This document shows positions 2-62,292 of a stretch of DNA of 64,000 nucleotides, piece after piece. The stretch lies in the sequence record PQ850631.1. One strand, 5' to 3'. Each line of letters opens with the position of its first letter. Within the stretch, counting starts at the first letter, position 1. Below the pieces are notes generated by a model that worked only from the letters and a program-made list of their open reading frames with translations, was not told the DNA's origin and searched no databases. The position numbers and the translations under genes were made by a program. The DNA is from Escherichia phage VerenaGrendelmeier_Bas101.

Positions 2-781
2 CCATCCAACGCTATTGCGATGGCCTATCGTCGTGAGATGAAAGGTCTTTGCTATGCGATGATTGACGACTATCAAGCAGGAATTGCTGAGTGGCTTGAA
101 AAGAAGCAGGTGAAAAAGTTCTTTGCGCAAGACTCTGCTGATTCAACTTTTCAGACCTTGATGAAGCGCCTTCAACTGAAATGGGCAAAAGCATTCGCCC
201 GTGTTGGGTCAAAGATTGCTGCAGATTTCATCAAGTCAGTTGAAAAGGGTGCGACTTCTGCTACATTCGCAAGTCTTAAATCTGCAGGAATAGAAGCGCC
301 AAAAGCCACATATAATAAATTCGTTGAGAACACTCTTAAAACAAGCGAGACGTTCAACACGACTCTAGTGACTAAGGTTGGCGAGGATATTCACAACAGG
401 GTGTACGAAGCGGTGATGCTTTCGCTGACTTCGCCAGACCCAGCGCAGCAAGGCACATCCGGCATTCAGGCGGCACTAAGGAATGTAAAACAATTCTCTG
501 CAAAACGCGTAGACCTTATCGCCAAAGACCAAACGAGCAAACTTTATTGCGTATTAAGTGATGAAAGGATGCGACAGAATGGCGTTGAGGAATTTGAGTG
601 GGCGCATTCAGGAGCAGGCAAAGAGCCGCGAATATCACATGAGCACGTCGACGGCATGAGATTCAAGCTTGATGACAAACGCTTATGGGAAGTAGGTGGA
701 GAACTTAAGTTCAAAAAGGGTGACATCGGTCCTCCTGGATGGGCAATACACTGCAAGTGCAGAAAAATACCAATTATCTGA
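2..781 (+). CDS. head morphogenesis protein, MuF/SPP1 gp7-like (5'-partial at window edge)
   Basis: Frame is open from the window start. C-terminal motif HSGAGKEPRISHEHVDGMRF...PPGWAIHCKCR is typical of the Mu F head morphogenesis domain. Confidence 0.65.
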   Translation, partial: PSNAIAMAYRREMKGLCYAMIDDYQAGIAEWLEKKQVKKFFAQDSADSTFQTLMKRLQLKWAKAFARVGSKIAADFIKSVEKGATSATFASLKSAGIEAPKATYNKFVENTLKTSETFNTTLVTKVGEDIHNRVYEAVMLSLTSPDPAQQGTSGIQAALRNVKQFSAKRVDLIAKDQTSKLYCVLSDERMRQNGVEEFEWAHSGAGKEPRISHEHVDGMRFKLDDKRLWEVGGELKFKKGDIGPPGWAIHCKCRKIPII

Positions 782-788
782 GGTCATT

Positions 789-1709
789 ATGACGATACCA
801 ATCAACACATTCCCTCTATCTGGACAAACTCCAGTCTTGCCTGCGGTGTATGCTAATGGCTTGGCAATTGTCTCAGAATTCACTTCTGATAAAAACTTGA
901 TTGTTCCACTGAGCCCGCCGCTTGCATCAGGGTATAACTCAGTAGGTCAATTCTTTATGATTGGCAATGATGGCGATTCGACCAGCAAGCCTAACCTGAC
1001 ATTGTCTGTGCCTAAGATGAACATCACAGACGTTCAAACTGGCTTGACTGCATCAACAATCACCATTGCTTTTGGTGAAGCAGTGATCATAGGTATGGAG
1101 TCTGGAGGGTCGAAAAACGCTGTCGCAGTCAAAGTTGTGAAAACCAGCGGCAACCAATACACGTTACCAGCGGCAACAGCTTCCGTTCTTGGTGGCGTCA
1201 AAATAGGCACCGGAATAAGCGTAGCAGGTGATGGTACAATCAGCGTCACCCAATACTCATTGCCGATTGCCTCAGCATCTACTTTAGGCGGCGTAAAGGT
1301 CGGTACAACTCTATCAATTGATGGGTCTGGTGTGCTTAATGCAGCAGCAAGTACCGTCCAGAATGCCACTAATAGCGTCAGCAATCCTCCAACAACTTTG
1401 GTCAATCTGGCAACCTTAAACCTTCCTGCAGGGAAATGGCTTGTAACAGCAAGTCAGTTGACTGTCGCGACAGCAGGCGTTCAAGCGAATACCGGAATTA
1501 CAGTCAAATTGTCAACAAGCAATTCAGATATTACGGATGATGCATTTGCCATGTCAGCTGGAATTCGGGCTGCAGGTCGCTTCGGCGGCAACATCCCAAC
1601 AAAAGTAATTACTCTTGCCGCGCCTGGTAATGTGTATTTAAACTATCAGTGCACCGACGCGTTGACATCTACCGTTTACGGACAGATCACCGCAATTAAG
1701 CTGAACTAA
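789..1709 (+). CDS. structural protein with tandem fiber-like repeats
   Basis: GAGG RBS 5 nt upstream of ATG. Internal ~32-aa repeats (PAATASVLGGVKIGTGISVAGDGTISV / PIASASTLGGVKVGTTLSIDGSGVL) resemble fiber-type repeats. Confidence 0.55.
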   Translation: MTIPINTFPLSGQTPVLPAVYANGLAIVSEFTSDKNLIVPLSPPLASGYNSVGQFFMIGNDGDSTSKPNLTLSVPKMNITDVQTGLTASTITIAFGEAVIIGMESGGSKNAVAVKVVKTSGNQYTLPAATASVLGGVKIGTGISVAGDGTISVTQYSLPIASASTLGGVKVGTTLSIDGSGVLNAAASTVQNATNSVSNPPTTLVNLATLNLPAGKWLVTASQLTVATAGVQANTGITVKLSTSNSDITDDAFAMSAGIRAAGRFGGNIPTKVITLAAPGNVYLNYQCTDALTSTVYGQITAIKLN

Positions 1710-1719
1710 AGAGGAAGTT

Positions 1720-1857
1720 ATGCAAAAGATTATTCAGTCACGTTATGTTAAAGTGCGAAATATTAATTGCAACTCTTTGCTTTCTTGGAAATGGGCTGTT
1801 TATGACTCGATGTTGATTGGCGTTTTAGTGGCAGGAGTGCTATTTAATATTCACTGA
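1720..1857 (+). CDS. small hydrophobic protein (45 aa)
   Basis: ATG preceded by GAGGAAG RBS; C-terminal hydrophobic stretch MLIGVLVAGVLF. Below the ORF-track size cut-off. Confidence 0.3.
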   Translation: MQKIIQSRYVKVRNINCNSLLSWKWAVYDSMLIGVLVAGVLFNIH

Positions 1858-1890
1858 ATTCATCGGCAAAGGATTGCCGCGAGTTTTATA

Positions 1891-2160
1891 CGTATAATGA
1901 CGTATCATCCGTATCAAGTAAGTTGTTGTTTTCAAAAGAATCTTACGGATGATACGCGTTGCCGCCGTACCATATAGGAATTCAAATAAATTAATTTAAA
2001 ATTATATATCTAATTTAATTTTATTTTTTTATAAACTCTTATATATGAAAAGTATCCGTATCATCCGTATCATCCGTAGCACACCAGTGATAGCGCGACT
2101 TATACACCGATACGGATAAAAATACGCCTCATTTTATCCGTATCATCCGTATCACACTAA
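1891..2160. repeat. iteron-like region: at least 8 copies of the 9-10-mer TCATCCGTA(TCA), both orientations, flanking an AT-rich tract (1981-2050)
   Basis: Copies at 1905-1916, 1943-1953 (rc), 2052-2078 (three tandem), 2109-2118 (rc), 2135-2154. Shares blocks with 54327-54615. Confidence 0.7.
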
Positions 2161-2211
2161 TAAAGGCGCGGCTATATCGGTTGTTATACATATTCAAACC
2201 ATAATTATTGT

Positions 2212-2240
2212 TTGCCTAAGTTTTTTTCATTAGATATAAT
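2212..2240 (+). promoter_or_regulatory. sigma70-like promoter TTGCCT-17-TATAAT for the structural operon
   Basis: -35 at 2212-2217, 17-bp spacer, -10 at 2235-2240, about 25 nt upstream of the 2264 start. Confidence 0.4.
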
Positions 2241-2263
2241 ACACAATACTTATTTGAGGGTGG

Positions 2264-18632: not shown

Positions 18633-21371
18633 ATGCAAAAGTTTGACACAAACCTGTTGCAAAACCTTAAGTGGATGCAGAACAATGCACCAAACATTAC
18701 ATCTTTGGTGCAAAAGAAAAGTGACTGGTATGAAAGATACCAAGATCAGTTTTGGACTGACTGGTACAATAACATTTTTAACATTGACACTTGTGATGCA
18801 ATGGGCATTTATATTTGGTGCGACATTCTTTGCATACCAAGAGACTTTGTGGACTTAAGCAATTATGAGCACAACTGGGCGTTTGGACCGACGCGCGACA
18901 ACTTTGAAGGTGCGGACAACATCGGCGGCAACTTCTTTGGTGCTGGCGGGAAGGTTGTAAAGAATATCGAAGAAGCGCGCATACTTCTTAAGCTTCGTTA
19001 TCTGACGCTTACAAGTGATGGCCGCATCGAAAGTATCAACCGCATGCTTAAGTGGATTTTTAACCGTGGAGAGGCTTGGGATTACTCTTCATCACGCTAC
19101 GCATATGTGACCGACAATACTCAAGGTGCGGTGTCTTCATCTGAATCAACAAATGGCTCATTCCTTCTGTACGACTGGCAAGGGTCAACTGAGATTCAGC
19201 ATGATTATAAGCAGATACTTTTAAGCCATGGCAACAACGCCGGGCTGACCATCAGCGGAGTGTCAGGCGCCGTGTCACGGATGGCGCACCCAGATTGGTA
19301 CTCATGGGGGAATGGCTCCGGCACAGGTCTTGTCGGCGGCGACACCAGACAGTATGGCGGCCCTGATTACTATGGACAGTTGTGTGGTGATTACCCAGGC
19401 GAGGCCATAGAGAATTTTGCCAACGCAGTAAGGGTAGTCAAGACTGCTTCAAGCGGTGAGCCTGTGTATTCTTTGGCAAATAATCCAAGCGCCCAATCCA
19501 TTGCGCTTCCTTCGCAGGCTGGCGTTAACGTTTGTTATAGCTTCTACATAAAGGTGCTTTCTGAAAATGTCGCTTCTGTTTCGGTTACAGAGAATAGTGA
19601 TGCATCGAGTAATGGAAAGCTGTTTGACCCCGTCACTGGCCAGTTCAACTTGGACCCGTCATTGAGCTATTTCATCAAAGGCAAATTCGATGGAGTAAGA
19701 AGGGAATCAAACCGTGGTGGCATAAAAGCAATTGGCGGCGATTGGTATCGAATCTGGATTGTAGAGCAGACGGCAACCGCTGCTTCTGGAGTAAGTACCA
19801 GCTTTTCAATAGAGTTGAAGGCGACTGCCGCTGGATCAACTCAAACTCGTGAATTGCCTGAAGGGTCTGATGCTCTTTTGTTTGGATACTCGATTTGCGT
19901 CTGCGACCCTGTTCAGAATCCAAATGGACCTGAGCCTTATTTTTATGGAACGCAAAACCCTCCTTCTGACGGAACAGCAATCCTGTCTGTAACGGCGGGA
20001 ACACTCAATAACATCTCCTGTGCAAACGGACCGCTGACGACAAGAAACGGTGTAGTTGGCGAGTCATTCATGCAACCTGGCTCATCACTTGCATACTCTG
20101 GCTCAATCGGCGGCTACCCGTACCCAGGGAACGCCACGCTGATTGCAGAGACTGATGGAATCAGACGCTCATGGAACGTTAGCAGGCTGGATGGAGTACC
20201 GCCGCCGCCGACCGCCGACTATTACATGGAATACGTCATCGGACCTTATTTCGCCAACAACCTGTCTGACAACTTTAAGACGCTAGTTGGTGACAGGAAT
20301 GAAGGATTCTTGCCAGCAAATGCCGGAATACGCTGGCAGCTTTACCAAGAAGTCGCAGACTTATCTGATATTGATTTGACTGTCAGCGACATAACAGACA
20401 CGCGCGTAGGATTTGAAACGGAAGGTGTTGCGTGGATTAACACTGACGGTATCATCAGAGTTGGCGGCATCAACGAGTGGCCGCTGAACAACTTCAACGG
20501 TGTGATACGCCAGCTTGAATCTTTGAAAGGTGTAAACCAGGTCGTCGACGGCGCGCTTGTCAACGACTATTCAATCTCAAAAGCATCAAGAGATGACTTT
20601 GGTCGTGAAATACCACGCGCGGCAATCACTAACTATTGGCGCTACACACAGCCAAATGACGGTACATCTTTTGGCAATATCATTGAGGATGGCGCAAACA
20701 CTGTCACAGCGATGCCAATCAGCGGTGTGCCCAACCAGTTCCCATCATTCAAGCTTTCCGCTACAATAGGGACTGTGCCAACGTCCGGTTATGCACGCGC
20801 TGTACTTGCTACTAAATACACTGGCACCCTGACTGGCCCTTTGTCATTTATCGCAATAGTCAAAAACAACACGGTTAACGGTCAAAAACTTTTTGTAACT
20901 GTACCGGATGGGATGGGCGGCTATATCCCTAAATTCTACAACATAGGCGCAGGTGATTTGCAACGTATCGAAATTGACCTTGCCGCTGAGATTGTTGAAG
21001 GCGCTACCTGGGATGGATCAACAGGCGGCATCAGCATCGGTTTGATATCAGGGAAAGACTTGCCGACCGAAGTTGGTACTACTCTTGAACTTGATATTTT
21101 AAGCTTGATGCTTGTGTCTGGTAGTACGATGAATGCGCTTGCAATTTCAACAAGCGAAGATTTCGCAAAGAAAACTGCGACTTCTATATACATCAAAAAC
21201 CCAGGATCACTTGCCACTGGAGTTCAATTGATTGCTTCTAATGGTGATGTTGTAGCAACAGTAAACTTTCCGAGAAGTGCTGCTGGTGGTTATGTTTCAA
21301 GCATGAACATAACTGACTTAACTGGTGATTGGGCATCGACCCTTTTATCAAAAATTAAATACATCGTGTAG
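18633..21371 (+). CDS. large baseplate wedge / tail fiber-associated protein
   Basis: 912 aa, GAGGA RBS, position between baseplate J and fiber. Confidence 0.45.
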   Translation: MQKFDTNLLQNLKWMQNNAPNITSLVQKKSDWYERYQDQFWTDWYNNIFNIDTCDAMGIYIWCDILCIPRDFVDLSNYEHNWAFGPTRDNFEGADNIGGNFFGAGGKVVKNIEEARILLKLRYLTLTSDGRIESINRMLKWIFNRGEAWDYSSSRYAYVTDNTQGAVSSSESTNGSFLLYDWQGSTEIQHDYKQILLSHGNNAGLTISGVSGAVSRMAHPDWYSWGNGSGTGLVGGDTRQYGGPDYYGQLCGDYPGEAIENFANAVRVVKTASSGEPVYSLANNPSAQSIALPSQAGVNVCYSFYIKVLSENVASVSVTENSDASSNGKLFDPVTGQFNLDPSLSYFIKGKFDGVRRESNRGGIKAIGGDWYRIWIVEQTATAASGVSTSFSIELKATAAGSTQTRELPEGSDALLFGYSICVCDPVQNPNGPEPYFYGTQNPPSDGTAILSVTAGTLNNISCANGPLTTRNGVVGESFMQPGSSLAYSGSIGGYPYPGNATLIAETDGIRRSWNVSRLDGVPPPPTADYYMEYVIGPYFANNLSDNFKTLVGDRNEGFLPANAGIRWQLYQEVADLSDIDLTVSDITDTRVGFETEGVAWINTDGIIRVGGINEWPLNNFNGVIRQLESLKGVNQVVDGALVNDYSISKASRDDFGREIPRAAITNYWRYTQPNDGTSFGNIIEDGANTVTAMPISGVPNQFPSFKLSATIGTVPTSGYARAVLATKYTGTLTGPLSFIAIVKNNTVNGQKLFVTVPDGMGGYIPKFYNIGAGDLQRIEIDLAAEIVEGATWDGSTGGISIGLISGKDLPTEVGTTLELDILSLMLVSGSTMNALAISTSEDFAKKTATSIYIKNPGSLATGVQLIASNGDVVATVNFPRSAAGGYVSSMNITDLTGDWASTLLSKIKYIV

Positions 21372-21381
21372 AGGAACGGCA

Positions 21382-23169
21382 ATGCCAACACTTATTAACA
21401 GACCTTTCGCGCAAAGCGGTGATGTATCCGTGGTGCCGGATGCAAGTCCAAGCGGTTATGTGAACTTCCAGCGCGGCTACACCCCTGACTATGCACTTGC
21501 GCTGGAAGCCGGAAACGTAGCCGCGAAAGCAGTTGAACGTGAGTCGATGAACTGGTTGCTGAATCTGATCACCGACAACCTTATGTTCATACAGGACCAC
21601 GGCGCTCAACAGTATTTCTCGTCTGACTTGAAGCCAGATGGATACCCGAAAAATGCCATCGTTGTCAGCAACTCTGGCACCCCTTCAGCGCCTGAATGGC
21701 GCATTTTCCAGAGTGTGGTAGACGGCAACACCAGCGCAGTCCCAGCTAACGGCGAAACGGAATCTTGGCAGGAATTGACGCTGCCTAGCGAAGCGAGAAA
21801 ATATATTCCTATGCCTGCTGGCGGCGATGCGCAAAACCCGTATTTTGTTCGCGGACTGATTTCAAACTTTGTGGACTTTGATAATATCACGACTTCCACA
21901 ACTATTGTCATTCAATCTGATGCCGTTGCCGCTCTCTGCTCTAACATCCCGAATGCGGTTGGTGCGACGAAGGTTGCAGGACGTCTCCAGGTTTGCGCTT
22001 GGCAGGTTGATGCGCAGACTTTCGCCCTGCAACAATACACGTCAATGAACGGATATGTTTTCACCCGCTCTTATACGTCTGGTGCTTGGAGTGCTTGGAT
22101 TCAAAATGCAACTGTTCAAGACGTGCAAATCGGCACGCCGAATCTTGCATCAGGTAAAGGCGCACAAGATATAATCCTTACCGTTCCGGCAGGTTATGCA
22201 TGGCCGCCGTCAGCAGGTAGTCGCCTGACAATTGTCAATGATGTAACGACTACCGGACCTGTTACCGTGACCATTGGTGCAAACAAGGTTGCCGTCCTTG
22301 GATTCGACGGCGGCGAGTTGCCAGCAGGGTCCATCGTCGGTCTGCTGCCTTTCACCATTATTTATGACGGAACAGTCTGGCGTCTTCTTCAAGCATTCGG
22401 CGCGGCGCAAATCGGTGTTGATGCTAGTGAGCCGCAACAGTTTGTGACAAAGCGTCAACTCGATGATTTGGCTTCTAAGTTGATCACTATGGGTGATGTA
22501 TTCGAAGTCGGTGAGACTCGATTCTTGACTAATGGCACCAACCCAAACACCAAGCTTGGCGCTTATGGACAGGTGTGGACCAGATTGCCTGATAACATGG
22601 TCATCAGAACATCCGGCACGGCACGAAACGGTCTTGCCACTGGCGGCGCGGACTCCGTCACCCTTACCGCCGCCATGCTTCCTCTGCACAATCACAGCGT
22701 GAACATTACTACGCGACAAAGCGGTCCATGGTCAAATACCACTGGAGATGCGGGCAACCATAACCACACAGGCGATACCAGTCAAAACGGTGCTCACGTG
22801 CACGGAATGGATTCGGCAGGCAACCACCACCATGACAGTAGCTGGGGTGAGGCGAATACGAATGATGCGCGGTATGGCGTGTATGACAATACGCACAACA
22901 ACTTCGGCAGTCGAAAGGGCGGCGACTGGGATAACTACAAATACAACACCTCGACTAACGGCAACCACGTCCACAATATCCAATCTTCTGGGTCACACAC
23001 CCATGGGTTGAATATAAATTACGCTGGCAATCACAGCCATAGCTATACCCTTCCCGCTCACACTCACGATGTGGTCGGTAACACTGGCAACGCAGGGCAG
23101 TCTGTTCCAACGGCTGTCTCAACCCTGCCGCGATATGTCGTCTTGAACGGCTGGTACAGAAGCGCATAA
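21382..23169 (+). CDS. tail fiber protein with C-terminal His-rich HxH repeats
   Basis: GAGGA RBS; C-terminal GNHNHTGDT...AHVHGMD...NHHHD...NHVHNIQ...SHTHGL...NHSHSY...AHTHDV. Confidence 0.65.
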   Translation: MPTLINRPFAQSGDVSVVPDASPSGYVNFQRGYTPDYALALEAGNVAAKAVERESMNWLLNLITDNLMFIQDHGAQQYFSSDLKPDGYPKNAIVVSNSGTPSAPEWRIFQSVVDGNTSAVPANGETESWQELTLPSEARKYIPMPAGGDAQNPYFVRGLISNFVDFDNITTSTTIVIQSDAVAALCSNIPNAVGATKVAGRLQVCAWQVDAQTFALQQYTSMNGYVFTRSYTSGAWSAWIQNATVQDVQIGTPNLASGKGAQDIILTVPAGYAWPPSAGSRLTIVNDVTTTGPVTVTIGANKVAVLGFDGGELPAGSIVGLLPFTIIYDGTVWRLLQAFGAAQIGVDASEPQQFVTKRQLDDLASKLITMGDVFEVGETRFLTNGTNPNTKLGAYGQVWTRLPDNMVIRTSGTARNGLATGGADSVTLTAAMLPLHNHSVNITTRQSGPWSNTTGDAGNHNHTGDTSQNGAHVHGMDSAGNHHHDSSWGEANTNDARYGVYDNTHNNFGSRKGGDWDNYKYNTSTNGNHVHNIQSSGSHTHGLNINYAGNHSHSYTLPAHTHDVVGNTGNAGQSVPTAVSTLPRYVVLNGWYRSA

Positions 23170-54326: not shown

Positions 54327-54615
54327 GCGTATAATGACGTAAGATTTGGACCTATCCGTAGTTCACTCCACACACTTCTATGGTGCGCCGCGACTGGGTT
54401 CAGTGGTACATCTTACGGATGATACGGATGATACGCGTCGCCGCTATACTTTATACAACTTTGAAAAAAACAATTAACTCCATTTTGAATTAATTTAAAT
54501 TAATTTTTTTCTACATCCTCATACTTATACTAAACTTATATTTATACGTATTATCCGTAAGATATAAGTAAAAACAAAGACTTGCGGCAATACGGATGAT
54601 ACGTCACGATACGCT
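54327..54615. repeat. second iteron-like region homologous to 1891-2160
   Basis: Shared blocks GCGTATAATGACGTA, ATCTTACGGATGATACG...GCCGC, AT-rich AATTAATTTAAA tract, TATCCGTA copies. Confidence 0.65.
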
Positions 54616-59958: not shown

Positions 59959-62292
59959 TTATTTCGCTGCTTTTAGCGCGGCTATCTCTGCCTCTAGTGA
60001 CTCGACCTTTTTCATCAACTCCTGTACCACGTGCATCGTATCCAAAAGCATAGGTGTCGTATCAAGTTGTTTTTGTTCAACTTCGACACCTTCACTCGGA
60101 TAGAATTTAATCGTCTTAACATACAAAGGATCAATAATCTCTGCCTGTTGAGCGATAATACCCCTTCTTATCCTTTCCTTTTCATCATTGTTGTATATGA
60201 ACGTTACATACTCCAGCGATGAAAGGTTGCTCCATGCTTTTTCAACCGTTCCTGGTTTTATGTCATGCTTCAAATTCTCATCAGAGATGGCATTCTTCTG
60301 AAGCGTGTAAAAACTATCTGATCCAAGAATTGACACAGAGAAGAATACATCATGAGAGTTTGGCTGGATGTTCATCCTTGTTTGGTATTGCGCGTTATCG
60401 TCACCTACGACAAGCCAAGTCCCCTGAGCAAAACTTCCATTATTATTGTGGATCAAACCGTGATGAAGAGTGGTCGCATAGCCTGTATCTACTTGTTGAC
60501 CGCCGCTAAAAAGGCTGTTGAATGCATAGTTTTGACCTATTGACTGTCTCACCGTTGCATAAGTGCCGATTCTTGTGCCAGTCTCATTCCAAGACATGAG
60601 ACTTCCGTATCTTGCTGCGTATCGGTCGCTACTCAGGGTTCCTGAATCATCAAACGCAAGGTCTTTTGTAACTCCTTTTGTTTTGTTATATACAGATAAA
60701 ATTGCATAATAAAAGCCATCCATGTATGCATCGCACCGAAGCCCAGCATCAGCCTCAACGACGGTTCCGATTTTGTATTGAGCCCTTATCTGACCAGATG
60801 ATGCCTTGACTCCAGAACCTGGGCGAACGGAGTCAGCATTGATGACCTGCCATTGCGTATCCGCGGCAACGAATCCACCCGATGCACGAATCACCCAAAC
60901 TCCGACGAAGTTGCGCGGAACAATTTCCGCTGCTGAACGACCATAAACAGGACTGCAGCGAGAAGCGTCAAAGTTTGTTTGTATGAATCTTGACCCAGAG
61001 CCTGCTGCCGCAGGAGAGTCACCCGAAGTTATTGACTGAAAAGCACCATTAGTTGCCACCTGGCTTGGTGCAGAAGCCAGCGTCACCATTGTGTGCGGCG
61101 CTGAGTAAATTATATTTGGAGCGCCTGATTCAGACACAACCCCGTTGGATGATGAATTCCCACCGTCACCCCTGCCAAATAAGGCCTGTATGGAACCAGT
61201 TTGAACACCGTTCCTGTCAGGCACTCGAAACGTCGTCGTTCCGTTGCCCAGAGAATATTTGCCGCGTTTTGCTGGGTCTGCTAACCAATCTGCATCAGCA
61301 ATAGGTGAAAGCATTTGCGCATACGCCCAAAGCTCAGGCCAATCAGCACGATTGAGTAGTTGACCGTCAGCGACGACTTCATAAGGTTGAATATAAGCGC
61401 GGCTGTCGCGTAAGTGGAAGTCGCCGACGCCATAGTTCATCACGCCGTTCATACTTGGGCCAACGGTGCCTGTGTTCACCAAGTTCTCAACCCAACGCTT
61501 CGTAGTAGCATCATAGTCGTTAACTGGGTCGCCAGCGAGCGGCGTTGATCCTTGAGGGCGTATGTTCAACCAAGCCTGAGCATTATCTGCAGAGCCTGTG
61601 CCGCCCATGGAAGTTGGCACGATGTCTTGATCAGCGACTGCGCCAAATCCAAAGGCCGACTTCACACCATCAATAGTTGTCTGGCCTGTGCCGCCGTTAG
61701 CTACTGGGATTACGGTTGACTCGGAATAAATCATGACCCAAGAAGACCATGATTGAGTTTCCATGGTGAATCTTCTTTGATATGTATTGTTGGAATCGAA
61801 TGTCGTATATCGTTGAATGCAACTTTCTGATATAACGCCTGTCTGCAATACTTCTAATACTCCTGCTTGCTGCGCAGGGTAATTCAAAGCTGAAGATGCA
61901 CCACCGTTTGAATTTTGGAAGTACTGCCCAAACCAAGTCCCTGTAAGCGCATTAAGATTCATGCCGGATGGAACAATCCCAAAGTTTCGGACAGTGCCCG
62001 TCAAAGTCGCGGCAGTAGTTCGAATGGAAAGCATATCGCCCGCCGCCCATGCACGAGCTGCAGTACCTTCCTGCGCACGCTGCACGGTTAGAACGTTTCC
62101 AACAACGGCTGTTACTGTGACGATTTCGAACTGGAGGCCTGTTGCAGCGTCGACGATTGTCGCCACTACACGCTCGTTTGCGCCCAAGGTCGGAAAGCCC
62201 GACCCTGAGCGGATTGTGATTGTGGTGCCTGAAGTCGTCGTTGGCTGAGCGAGCGCGACCTCAAAGTTGTTTTTGAATATTAGCCTTGGCAT
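59959..62292 (-). CDS. tail fiber / tailspike protein with C-terminal intramolecular chaperone (peptidase S74-like) domain
   Basis: 777 aa; C-terminal SDENLKHDIKP...LEYVTFIYNND...RRGIIAQQAEIIDPLYV and terminal coiled coil. Confidence 0.65.
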   Translation of the reverse strand: MPRLIFKNNFEVALAQPTTTSGTTITIRSGSGFPTLGANERVVATIVDAATGLQFEIVTVTAVVGNVLTVQRAQEGTAARAWAAGDMLSIRTTAATLTGTVRNFGIVPSGMNLNALTGTWFGQYFQNSNGGASSALNYPAQQAGVLEVLQTGVISESCIQRYTTFDSNNTYQRRFTMETQSWSSWVMIYSESTVIPVANGGTGQTTIDGVKSAFGFGAVADQDIVPTSMGGTGSADNAQAWLNIRPQGSTPLAGDPVNDYDATTKRWVENLVNTGTVGPSMNGVMNYGVGDFHLRDSRAYIQPYEVVADGQLLNRADWPELWAYAQMLSPIADADWLADPAKRGKYSLGNGTTTFRVPDRNGVQTGSIQALFGRGDGGNSSSNGVVSESGAPNIIYSAPHTMVTLASAPSQVATNGAFQSITSGDSPAAAGSGSRFIQTNFDASRCSPVYGRSAAEIVPRNFVGVWVIRASGGFVAADTQWQVINADSVRPGSGVKASSGQIRAQYKIGTVVEADAGLRCDAYMDGFYYAILSVYNKTKGVTKDLAFDDSGTLSSDRYAARYGSLMSWNETGTRIGTYATVRQSIGQNYAFNSLFSGGQQVDTGYATTLHHGLIHNNNGSFAQGTWLVVGDDNAQYQTRMNIQPNSHDVFFSVSILGSDSFYTLQKNAISDENLKHDIKPGTVEKAWSNLSSLEYVTFIYNNDEKERIRRGIIAQQAEIIDPLYVKTIKFYPSEGVEVEQKQLDTTPMLLDTMHVVQELMKKVESLEAEIAALKAAK

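What the first reader, a model, noticed from the sequence alone, without database searches (positions are those of the whole stretch)
789..1709. Repeat-containing structural protein between the head morphogenesis gene and the late promoter
The protein contains tandem ~32-aa repeats with the motif A(T/S)AS(V/T)LGGVK(I/V)GTG, reminiscent of fiber repeats, yet it sits in the head-gene neighbourhood, upstream of the iteron region and late promoter. It may be a head fiber or decoration fibril.
Basis: seen in the sequence. Interest (0 to 1): 0.35.

Follow-up and report, generated by a model that had tools for sequence, protein, structure and literature searches.

The report
Short accessory virion fibre of Wifcevirus
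This gene of an E. coli phage (genus Wifcevirus) encodes a short, probably three-chain fibre that has been detected in purified virus particles. It most likely projects from the phage head to help it stick to cells, but where it attaches has never been shown.

Summary
ORF 789-1709 (+) encodes a 306-aa protein with two tandem 32-aa repeats, at aa 123-154 and 155-186 (self-alignment 95 against 40 +/- 6.6 for shuffles).

The window is a Wifcevirus, 99.2% identical to phage TH32. All 28 sequenced relatives keep the gene, under strong purifying selection (dN/dS 0.02-0.08).

The protein has three parts:
- An N-terminal all-beta domain with no Pfam family. In distant relatives it heads proteins of 143-746 aa.
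- Two repeats carrying the motif Y.LP.A(T/S)...GGVK, which is shared with the head fibres of phi29 (gp8.5) and crAss001 (gp21).
- A C-terminal jelly roll that resembles TNF/C1q-type trimeric knobs.

In 5 of 5 informative contigs the gene directly follows the Mu-F-like head gene and precedes the protease, cement and capsid genes. Pbunavirus PB1 lacks it.

The "head fibre" label rests only on the repeat motif. The base and stem that define phi29 gp8.5 are absent. A head location is favoured but not shown; a tail or neck fibre remains possible. This is an ordinary new member of a known kind.

The parts
780..783 (+). Shine-Dalgarno-like GAGG, 5 nt before the ATG at 789
   Evidence: Read directly from the sequence. 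The start agrees with the 306-aa orthologues annotated in Bas100, WFH and vB_Eco4M-7.
789..1709 (+). Coding sequence of the 306-aa (about 30.9 kDa) accessory virion fibre protein
   Evidence: ORF list and translation. Orthologues are 93-100% identical in all 28 Wifcevirus records. dN/dS is 0.02-0.08. The orthologue was detected in CsCl-purified virions (PMC7048862).
789..1148 (+). N-terminal all-beta domain (aa 1 to about 120), the presumed anchor to the virion
   Evidence: AF2 model from a 16-sequence alignment: pLDDT 88.8, pTM 0.82, nine strands. A profile search of 1.84 billion representatives finds the domain at the N-terminus of 143-746-aa proteins with different distal parts. It has no Pfam, NCBIfam or PDB sequence match. 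Foldseek neighbours are the Pa223 capsid spike, then tail-borne anchor domains.
1155..1250 (+). Repeat unit 1 (aa 123-154), motif YTLPAATASVLGGVK followed by a predicted beta-hairpin
   Evidence: Self-alignment. PF11133 profile positions 213-252 match here. phmmer match to phi29 gp8.5 3qc7/6qvk. BLASTP match to crAss001 gp21.
1251..1346 (+). Repeat unit 2 (aa 155-186), motif YSLPIASASTLGGVK followed by a predicted beta-hairpin
   Evidence: Self-alignment. Second BLASTP segment against crAss001 gp21. Homologues carry 2, 3 or 4 units at this place.
1347..1706 (+). C-terminal beta-sandwich domain (aa 187-306), the presumed distal knob
   Evidence: Full-length AF2 model, pLDDT about 65 in this region, 7 strands. 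Foldseek matches to TNF/C1q-type jelly rolls appear with the full-length model but not with the N-domain alone. The matches include BC2L-C N-terminal lectin (TM 0.57 on the target), ExsFA/BxpB and C1q. By sequence the domain is found only in close relatives.
1864..1889 (+). Terminator-like hairpin and T-rich tail, probably the end of the portal / Mu-F / fibre / 45-aa-ORF transcription unit
   Evidence: Consensus scan only. Function not tested.

Best explanation
The gene encodes a non-essential, virion-borne, probably homotrimeric short fibre, roughly 10 nm long by analogy with other fibres of this size. I propose that its N-terminal beta domain (aa 1-120) docks it on the outside of the T=9 E217-type capsid. 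The centre of a hexon or the top of the cement-protein lattice are the obvious free sites. Two 32-aa Y.LP.A(T/S)...GGVK-plus-hairpin repeats form a short three-chain shaft. The C-terminal TNF/C1q-like jelly roll forms a distal knob that binds a conserved surface ligand, most likely a carbohydrate. That would give weak, reversible adhesion that raises the chance of productive tail contact, as proposed for phi29 gp8.5, crAss001 gp21, the Pa223 capsid spike, T4 Hoc and SPP1 gp12. Shown: the protein is real, conserved under purifying selection, present in purified virion preparations, and built from an anchor domain, repeats and a knob, with modular exchange of the distal part in relatives. Inferred: trimeric state, attachment to the head rather than the tail or neck, ligand type, and dispensability.
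For: (1) Virion association. The orthologue gp38 of vB_Eco4M-7 had 72.9% coverage and a Sequest score of 3354 in CsCl-purified phage, and ECML-117 gp36 was also detected (PMC7048862).
(2) The only proteins with this motif whose position in a virion has been determined are trimeric head fibres: phi29 gp8.5 and crAss001 gp21, whose C-terminal domain is 40% identical to gp8.5 residues 226-280 (PMC10172136).
(3) Gene position. The gene starts 8 nt after the Mu-F-like gene, in the portal/Mu-F transcription unit. In 5 of 5 informative contigs of distant relatives, the gene with the same N-domain sits between Mu-F and the protease, cement and capsid genes. In a sixth it sits next to the terminase. 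It is never in the tail-fibre block.
(4) The N-domain profile matches no other ORF of the window, including the two bona fide tail fibres at 21325-23169 and 59959-62292. Its docking site therefore differs from theirs.
(5) The best structural neighbour of the N-domain is the Pa223 capsid spike gp52 (E 4.9e-4, TM 0.52 on the query). That protein is a 295-aa trimer with a C-terminal TNF-fold knob protruding about 100 A from the capsid (bioRxiv 10.1101/2025.06.11.659172), the same size and layout as proposed here.
(6) Fibre hallmarks: repeat number varies from 2 to 4 among homologues, one anchor domain carries varied distal parts, and two tandem paralogues occur in L011.
(7) Accessory status. PB1 has only two small ORFs in this slot, and the E217 capsid structure shows only the cement protein (PMC10329688).
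(8) Low variability (dN/dS 0.02-0.08) contrasts with the highly variable receptor-binding domains of the Wifcevirus T-shaped tail fibre (PMC11990801). This fits a conserved auxiliary ligand rather than the host-range determinant.
Against: No experiment or structure locates the protein on a Wifcevirus particle, and no micrograph description in the papers read mentions head fibres. After Pa223 gp52, the structural neighbours of the N-domain are tail-borne anchor or adaptor domains: KP1 baseplate proteins, the Solidus tailspike, T4 gp9/gp10 and CBA120 TSP4. All of these matches are weak. Gene position is not decisive in this genus, because the T-shaped tail fibre gene also lies outside the tail module, a few kb upstream of the terminase. 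The repeat motif also occurs in proteins placed in tail-fibre-like contexts. The C-domain model has only moderate confidence (pLDDT about 65), and its fold matches have E about 1e-3. The CsCl preparation also contained some non-structural proteins such as a helicase and a glyoxalase.
Confidence: 0.5

Rival explanations
1. It is a third, short tail- or neck-borne fibre: an auxiliary receptor-binding protein or whisker attached to the baseplate, the collar or another fibre through its gp9/gp10-like N-terminal domain. It is not a capsid fibre.
For: Five of the six best Foldseek neighbours of the N-domain are tail-borne anchor or adaptor modules: KP1 baseplate proteins, the Solidus tailspike N-terminus, T4 gp9, CBA120 TSP4 and T4 gp10. 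PHROG and Pharokka-type annotation calls the orthologues 'tail fiber', 'tail protein' or 'tail connector'. The motif occurs in many proteins annotated as tail fibres. Another tail fibre gene of this genus also lies outside the tail module.
Against: Those fold matches are weak (E 6e-3 to 0.14). The 'tail' names derive from the repeat motif alone. The N-domain is not shared with either Wifcevirus tail fibre. The gene is always in the head/packaging block. The BASEL authors, who annotated Wifcevirus with the help of the E217 structure, describe only two sets of tail fibres.
Confidence: 0.33
2. It is mainly a capsid-stabilising decoration (cement-like) protein. The fibre-like look is incidental and there is no role in adhesion.
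For: It sits in the head module and is very conserved. The Pa223 spike is also suggested to contribute to capsid stability.
Against: The capsid already has a dedicated cement protein, PF22758, the next gene but one. PB1 and E217 build the same T=9 capsid without this gene. Variable repeat number and swapped distal domains are typical of projecting, ligand-binding fibres, not of cement.
Confidence: 0.07
3. It is not a virion component, for example an assembly factor or an abundant late protein that co-purifies. Alternatively it acts at the cell envelope, as the signal-peptide-like N-termini of some distant relatives might suggest.
For: The CsCl preparation also contained clearly non-structural proteins. 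P0122, P0124, P0127 and P0131 have hydrophobic or lipobox-like N-terminal extensions.
Against: Coverage and score were high in vB_Eco4M-7, and the orthologue was detected independently in ECML-117. The window protein has no hydrophobic N-terminus. The architecture and motif are those of virion fibres.
Confidence: 0.07

Closest known systems
Bacillus phage phi29 head fibre gp8.5 (Pfam PF11133; PDB 3QC7, 6QVK)
   Same: It shares the roughly 20-aa motif (phi29 YSLPAATTTTLGGVKKG; here YTLPAATASVLGGVKIG and YSLPIASASTLGGVKVG). The Pfam score of 28.2 is above the 24.6 cut-off. Like this protein, gp8.5 is a dispensable fibre, and it is encoded next to head genes.
   Different: The match covers only profile positions 213-252 of 277. 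[quoted passage not shown] This protein is all-beta, the motif is duplicated in tandem and internal, and it is followed by a 120-aa jelly-roll domain.
Bacteroides phage crAss001 trimeric head fibre gp21 (PMC10172136)
   Same: It shares the motif (YVLPAATTSTIGGVKK; BLASTP E 5e-5 and 4e-4 against the two repeats). Its gene lies directly after the portal gene. Its capsid is T=9, like the E217-type capsid, and the trimer sits in the hexon pocket on the three-fold axis.
   Different: gp21 is only 97 aa. It has a 38-residue N-terminal peptide that binds the hexon pocket, one motif copy and a helical tail. It has no 120-aa N-domain and no C-terminal knob.
Pseudomonas phage Pa223 capsid spike gp52 (PDB 9NY6; bioRxiv 10.1101/2025.06.11.659172)
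   Same: It is the best structural neighbour of the N-domain (E 4.9e-4, TM 0.52 on the query, 104 columns). It has a similar size (295 aa) and the same overall plan: a trimer with an attachment part, a beta-rich middle and a C-terminal TNF-fold knob, protruding about 100 A. Its authors propose an adsorption role.
   Different: No sequence similarity was detected. gp52 anchors through extended arms (residues 2-41) and has a triple beta-helix, not Y.LP.AT..GGVK repeats. It belongs to a podovirus with a T=7 capsid. Which part of gp52 aligns with the N-domain is unknown, because the tool gives no ranges.
TNF/C1q-like trimeric knobs (BC2L-C N-terminal lectin, C1q globular domain, exosporium ExsFA/BxpB; C1q-domain and collagen-like phage fibre proteins in BFVD)
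   Same: The full-length model matches these folds (E about 1e-3, TM on target 0.41-0.57) and matches C1q-domain and collagen-like viral fibre proteins. These folds are obligate trimers, and several of them bind sugars at subunit interfaces.
   Different: There is no sequence similarity. The C-domain model is of moderate confidence only. No ligand-binding residues can be inferred.
Phage tail fibres and tailspikes with gp9/gp10-type N-terminal adaptor domains (T4 gp9, gp10; CBA120 TSP4)
   Same: The N-domain shows weak fold similarity to them. The modular build, with a conserved N-terminal anchor and exchangeable distal parts, is the same.
   Different: It is encoded in the head block, not shared with this phage's own tail fibres, and much shorter than they are (306 aa against 614 and 777 aa).

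Membership tests
phi29 gp8.5-type head fibre (Pfam PF11133 Phage_head_fibr) | Pfam model matched above the gathering score | tested here: met
   28.2 bits against a cut-off of 24.6, E 1.6e-6. However, only profile positions 213-252 of 277 are matched, in two stretches that coincide with the two repeats.
phi29 gp8.5-type head fibre (Pfam PF11133 Phage_head_fibr) | N-terminal capsid-binding base made of two small beta-barrels (residues 1-110) | tested here: not met
   phmmer aligns only residues 93-147 with gp8.5 residues 200-254. An N-domain profile search against PDB sequences finds no gp8.5. No gp8.5 entry is among the 50 listed (of 154) Foldseek matches of the high-confidence N-domain model.
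phi29 gp8.5-type head fibre (Pfam PF11133 Phage_head_fibr) | [quoted passage not shown] | tested here: not met
   Neither AF2 model contains a helix of 4 or more residues. The segment between the domains consists of Gly/Ser/Thr-rich repeats with short strands.
phi29 gp8.5-type head fibre (Pfam PF11133 Phage_head_fibr) | Bound as a trimer to the capsid surface | not testable with these tools
   This needs cryo-EM or immunolabelling. Only presence in CsCl-purified particles is known.
crAss001 gp21-type trimeric head fibre | C-terminal module homologous to gp8.5 residues 226-280 (motif Y.LPAAT...GGVK) | tested here: met
   BLASTP of gp21 against this protein gives 12/20 and 11/18 identities on the two repeats, E 5e-5 and 4e-4. 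Only the 18-20-aa core aligns.
crAss001 gp21-type trimeric head fibre | Short N-terminal peptide (residues 1-38) that binds the hexon pocket | tested here: not met
   No alignment outside the motif. This protein instead has a folded 120-aa domain at its N-terminus.
Pa223 gp52-type capsid spike | Trimer with N-terminal attachment arms, a triple beta-helix and a TNF-fold knob | tested here: inconclusive
   Foldseek E 4.9e-4, TM 0.52 on the query, 10% identity over 104 columns. A TNF-like C-terminal fold is suggested. There is no sequence similarity, and oligomeric state and aligned ranges are unknown.
Phage tail fibre (as annotated for the Bas98-100, F13 and EC150 orthologues) | Shares its virion-anchor domain with, or is encoded among, the phage's tail fibre and baseplate genes | tested here: not met
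   The N-domain HMM hits only this ORF in the window. The tail fibres lie at 21325-23169 and 59959-62292. In 6 of 6 relatives the gene is in the head/packaging block.
Phage tail fibre (as annotated for the Bas98-100, F13 and EC150 orthologues) | Physically attached to the baseplate or tail | not testable with these tools
   Weak fold similarity of the N-domain to gp9/gp10-type adaptor domains keeps this possibility open.
TNF/C1q-like trimeric knob | Ten-stranded jelly roll that forms a trimer | tested here: inconclusive
   Foldseek E about 1e-3 and TM on target up to 0.57, with C1q-domain hits in BFVD. The C-domain pLDDT is only about 65, with a disordered stretch at 250-268. The model is a monomer.

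The most novel reading that the evidence does not exclude
The 120-aa N-terminal domain defines a so-far unnamed family of capsid-docking anchors specific to E217/Pbunavirus-like T=9 myophages. On this anchor, distal binding modules are exchanged just as on tail fibres: GGVK repeats with a TNF-like knob here, and quite different 300-600-aa modules in relatives. This would make the head of these phages a second, evolvable receptor-binding surface, encoded in a fixed 'cargo slot' between the Mu-F-like gene and the protease gene.
Probability: 0.35. Interest if true: 0.5.

Novelty: new member of a known kind. Interest (0 to 1): 0.27.

Why it matters
Wifceviruses are candidate biocontrol and diagnostic phages against E. 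coli O157, and their Pbunavirus relatives are used in therapy. An accessory adhesion fibre on the particle would affect adsorption, retention on surfaces or mucus, and immunogenicity. Being probably dispensable and surface-exposed, it would also be a convenient site for tags or display. The analysis further shows that database names for this gene ('head fiber', 'tail fiber', 'tail connector') all derive from one 20-residue motif and should not be read as localisation. Beyond that, the finding is ordinary.

Tried and rejected
- Word-indexed homology searches with the isolated N-domain and C-domain returned nothing, although a 97%-identical protein is in the database. The full HMMER scan with an N-domain profile replaced them.
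- tblastn of either terminal domain against 50,697 phage records found only Wifcevirus.
- Pfam scans of nine N-domain relatives found nothing, as did NCBIfam for this protein and a PDB sequence search with the N-domain profile.
- Tandem Repeats Finder sees no DNA-level repeat.
- I tried to use the published Sequest scores as a copy-number proxy to separate a many-copy head protein from a few-copy tail protein. I rejected this because the T-shaped tail fibre scores highest and the capsid protein scores low, so the scores do not track stoichiometry.
- I considered synteny as proof of a head location and downgraded it, because a bona fide tail fibre gene of this genus also lies outside the tail block.
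- I surveyed the contexts of other motif-bearing proteins to see whether the motif marks head fibres. The contexts are mixed.
- The original phi29 head-fibre structure paper could not be retrieved. Its head/neck/stem description is from my own knowledge and from secondary citations.
- No micrograph description of Wifcevirus mentions head fibres.

Full report
**Identity of the window and the gene**

The first 6 kb of the window are 99.2% identical to Escherichia phage TH32 and 93-98% identical to 27 other Wifcevirus records: WFC, WFH, ECML-117, FEC19, vB_Eco4M-7, Bas98-100 and others. The finding corresponds to a 306-aa ORF. Its ATG is at 789, preceded by GAGG, 8 nt after the stop codon of a Mu-F-like head morphogenesis gene (PF04233). 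Its stop codon ends at 1709.

Downstream come, in order:
- a 45-aa ORF;
- a terminator-like hairpin;
- a 400-nt repeat-rich spacer with a promoter-like site;
- the DUF2213 protease/scaffold gene;
- the E217-gp24-type cement protein (PF22758);
- the major capsid protein.

**The observation**

The protein has exactly two tandem 32-aa units, at aa 123-154 and 155-186, with 17 of 30 aligned residues identical. The self-alignment score is 95, against 40.2 +/- 6.6 (maximum 63) for 200 shuffles. The DNA copies are only 51% identical and Tandem Repeats Finder reports nothing. This is therefore an old duplication maintained at the protein level. The motif occurs nowhere else in the six frames of the window.

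**Is it a real, expressed, structural protein?**

All 28 Wifcevirus records carry the gene. Identity is 96.7-100% in the N-terminal third, 91-100% in the repeats and 93.5-100% in the C-terminal third.

Against Bas100, WFH and vB_Eco4M-7, dN/dS is 0.02-0.08 while dS reaches 0.75. This is similar to the neighbouring Mu-F-like and cement genes.

Necel et al. (PMC7048862) analysed CsCl-purified vB_Eco4M-7 and ECML-117 by LC-MS/MS:
- vB_Eco4M-7_38, 'unknown protein, 30.9 kDa', gave 8 peptides, 72.9% coverage and a score of 3354.
- ECML-117 PI34_gp36 gave 3 peptides.

I confirmed that vBEco4M7_38 is the orthologue. One caveat applies: the same preparations contained a few clearly non-structural proteins. 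The Sequest scores also do not follow copy number, so they give no stoichiometry.

**Anatomy**

*N-terminal domain (aa 1 to about 120).* With a 16-sequence alignment, AlphaFold2 gives a confident all-beta model (pLDDT 88.8, pTM 0.82). The domain has no Pfam, NCBIfam or PDB sequence relative.

A profile search of 1.84 billion representative proteins found 30 hits. Besides repetitive giant proteins that matched only partially, about a dozen proteins of 143-746 aa carry the domain at their N-terminus, followed by quite different distal parts. Some have similar GGV repeats. Others have unrelated modules of 300-600 aa.

*Repeats (aa 123-186).* Each unit is Y.LP.A(T/S)...GGVK.G followed by a predicted beta-hairpin (G-I/L-S-V/I..DG..I/L-S-V). 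The monomer model is unstructured here (pLDDT below 45), as expected for a shaft that folds only as an oligomer. Full-length metagenomic homologues have 2 (P0004), 3 (P0002) or 4 (P0003) units. P0103 has the N-domain and two units but no C-domain.

*C-terminal domain (aa 187-306).* This is a beta-sandwich of moderate confidence (pLDDT about 65). Foldseek with the full-length model finds TNF/C1q-type jelly rolls: BC2L-C N-terminal lectin (TM 0.57 on the target), ExsFA/BxpB, C1q and 4-1BBL, all at E about 1e-3. In BFVD it finds C1q-domain and collagen-like viral fibre proteins. These hits disappear when only the N-domain is searched, so they belong to the C-domain. By sequence, the C-domain exists only in the close family.

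**What the 'head fibre' label rests on**

Pfam PF11133 is matched above threshold (28.2 against 24.6 bits), but only over profile positions 213-252 of 277, which is the repeat motif. phmmer against the PDB aligns aa 93-147 with gp8.5 residues 200-254 (YSLPAATTTTLGGVKKG; E 0.0024).

[quoted passage not shown] Both are absent here. The protein is therefore not a member of the gp8.5 family in any strict sense. It shares one module.

That module is informative, however. The crAss001 trimeric head fibre gp21 was located by cryo-EM in the hexon pocket on the three-fold axis of a T=9 capsid. Its C-terminal domain is 40% identical to gp8.5 residues 226-280 (PMC10172136). Its motif YVLPAATTSTIGGVKK aligns with both repeats here. 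Both motif-bearing proteins whose location I found reported are thus trimeric head fibres.

Against this, the motif is very widespread. There were 867 or more database hits. It occurs in jumbo-phage and cyanophage proteins annotated as tail fibres. Three contexts I inspected were mixed:
- between the capsid and adaptor genes of an SU10-like podophage;
- after giant fibre-like proteins;
- at the end of a structural block, just before the terminase gene.

The motif is a general fibre module, not a marker of the head.

**Genomic context in relatives**

In five of five informative contigs, the gene carrying this N-domain lies directly after the Mu-F-like gene and before the protease, cement and capsid genes of E217/Pbunavirus-like myophages. 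These are P0002, P0133, P0129, P0137 and P0122. In a sixth (P0103) it lies next to the terminase gene.

One relative has two adjacent paralogues with the N-domain. Another has three large genes in the slot. Pseudomonas phage PB1 has only two small ORFs there, and the cryo-EM atlas of E217 shows a T=9 capsid decorated only by the cement protein (PMC10329688). The gene is therefore an accessory occupant of a variable slot in the head block.

The N-domain HMM hits no other ORF of the window. The window's tail fibres are at 21325-23169 (614 aa) and 59959-62292 (777 aa, minus strand). They correspond to the two fibre sets described for Wifcevirus by the BASEL study (PMC11990801).

**Head or tail?**

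Points in favour of the head:
- the head-block position of the gene;
- a distinct anchor domain, not shared with the tail fibres;
- the two localised motif-bearing proteins are both head fibres;
- the best structural neighbour of the N-domain is the Pa223 capsid spike gp52 (E 4.9e-4, TM 0.52). This is a 295-aa trimer with a TNF-fold knob that projects about 100 A and is proposed to aid adsorption.

Points against:
- the next neighbours are tail-borne adaptor domains: KP1 baseplate proteins, the Solidus tailspike, T4 gp9/gp10 and CBA120 TSP4;
- all of these fold matches are weak;
- the T-shaped tail fibre gene of this genus also lies outside the tail module, so position is not proof;
- no micrograph description mentions head fibres.

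I put about 0.5 on a capsid fibre, about 0.33 on a tail or neck fibre, and the rest on other readings.

**Proposed mechanism**

Three chains associate through the TNF/C1q-like C-domain and the repeats. The N-domains dock on the mature capsid; hexon centres or the cement lattice are the free sites on an E217-type T=9 shell. The distal knob then makes weak, multivalent contacts with a conserved surface component, probably a glycan. This would keep the particle near the cell until the variable tail fibres engage the O-antigen.

The low variability of the protein contrasts with the highly variable tail-fibre receptor-binding domains. That fits an auxiliary, host-range-neutral role. Oligomeric state, docking site, ligand and dispensability are all inferences.

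**Novelty and verdict**

The gene is already present in databases, and in some it is already named 'head fiber protein'. Its product has already been seen in virions, without comment. It belongs to the known kind 'accessory phage fibre'.

What is new here:
- the domain dissection;
- the recognition of an unnamed N-terminal anchor family tied to a fixed slot in E217-like head modules;
- the demonstration that all current names derive from one short motif.

Interest is modest.

Noticed in passing
window 1858-2263 and window 54330-54610: The spacer after the fibre operon contains boxes CGTATCATCCGTA (five direct copies plus inverted copies at 1944-1956 and 2109-2121), an AT-rich core, and a promoter-like TTGCCT-17-TATAAT at 2212-2240. 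A second, inverted copy of the same element of about 250 nt lies near 54.4 kb. All 9 matches to ATCCGTATCATCCGTA (up to 3 mismatches; 0.34 expected) fall in these two places. The boxes are absent from PB1 and from the metagenomic relatives checked. Function (operator, origin or promoter control) was not tested.
   Followed up: partly
window 1720-1857 (+): A 45-aa ORF directly after the fibre gene has a C-terminal hydrophobic segment (LLSWKWAVYDSMLIGVLVAGV). The segment is conserved in the same position in metagenomic relatives and in PB1 gp21, so this small membrane-type protein is a fixed feature of the slot even where the fibre gene is absent.
   Followed up: partly
L011 7948-9840 and 9858-10871; L006 3716-9388: In distant relatives, the slot between the Mu-F-like gene and the protease gene holds several large genes. 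L011 has two adjacent paralogues that both carry the N-domain. L006 and L007 have a 1073-aa protein with a weak YadA_head hit, a 405-aa N-domain fibre and a 402-aa protein.
   Followed up: partly
proteins P0122, P0124, P0127, P0131 (distant N-domain relatives): These relatives have signal-peptide-like or lipobox-like extensions of 20-40 residues before the N-domain. The window protein has none. They may be mis-called starts or a real difference in targeting.
   Followed up: no
window 59959-62292 (-): The 777-aa tail fibre gene (the T-shaped fibre of the BASEL study; orthologue of vB_Eco4M-7 gp27) lies far from the tail module, on the opposite strand. It is a few kb upstream of the terminase and portal region, which falls outside the window.
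   Followed up: partly
(tool behaviour): The word-indexed protein search returned no hit for the isolated N- or C-terminal 120 residues, although a 97%-identical full-length protein (P0001) is in the same database. Negative results from that tool with short queries should not be trusted.
   Followed up: yes
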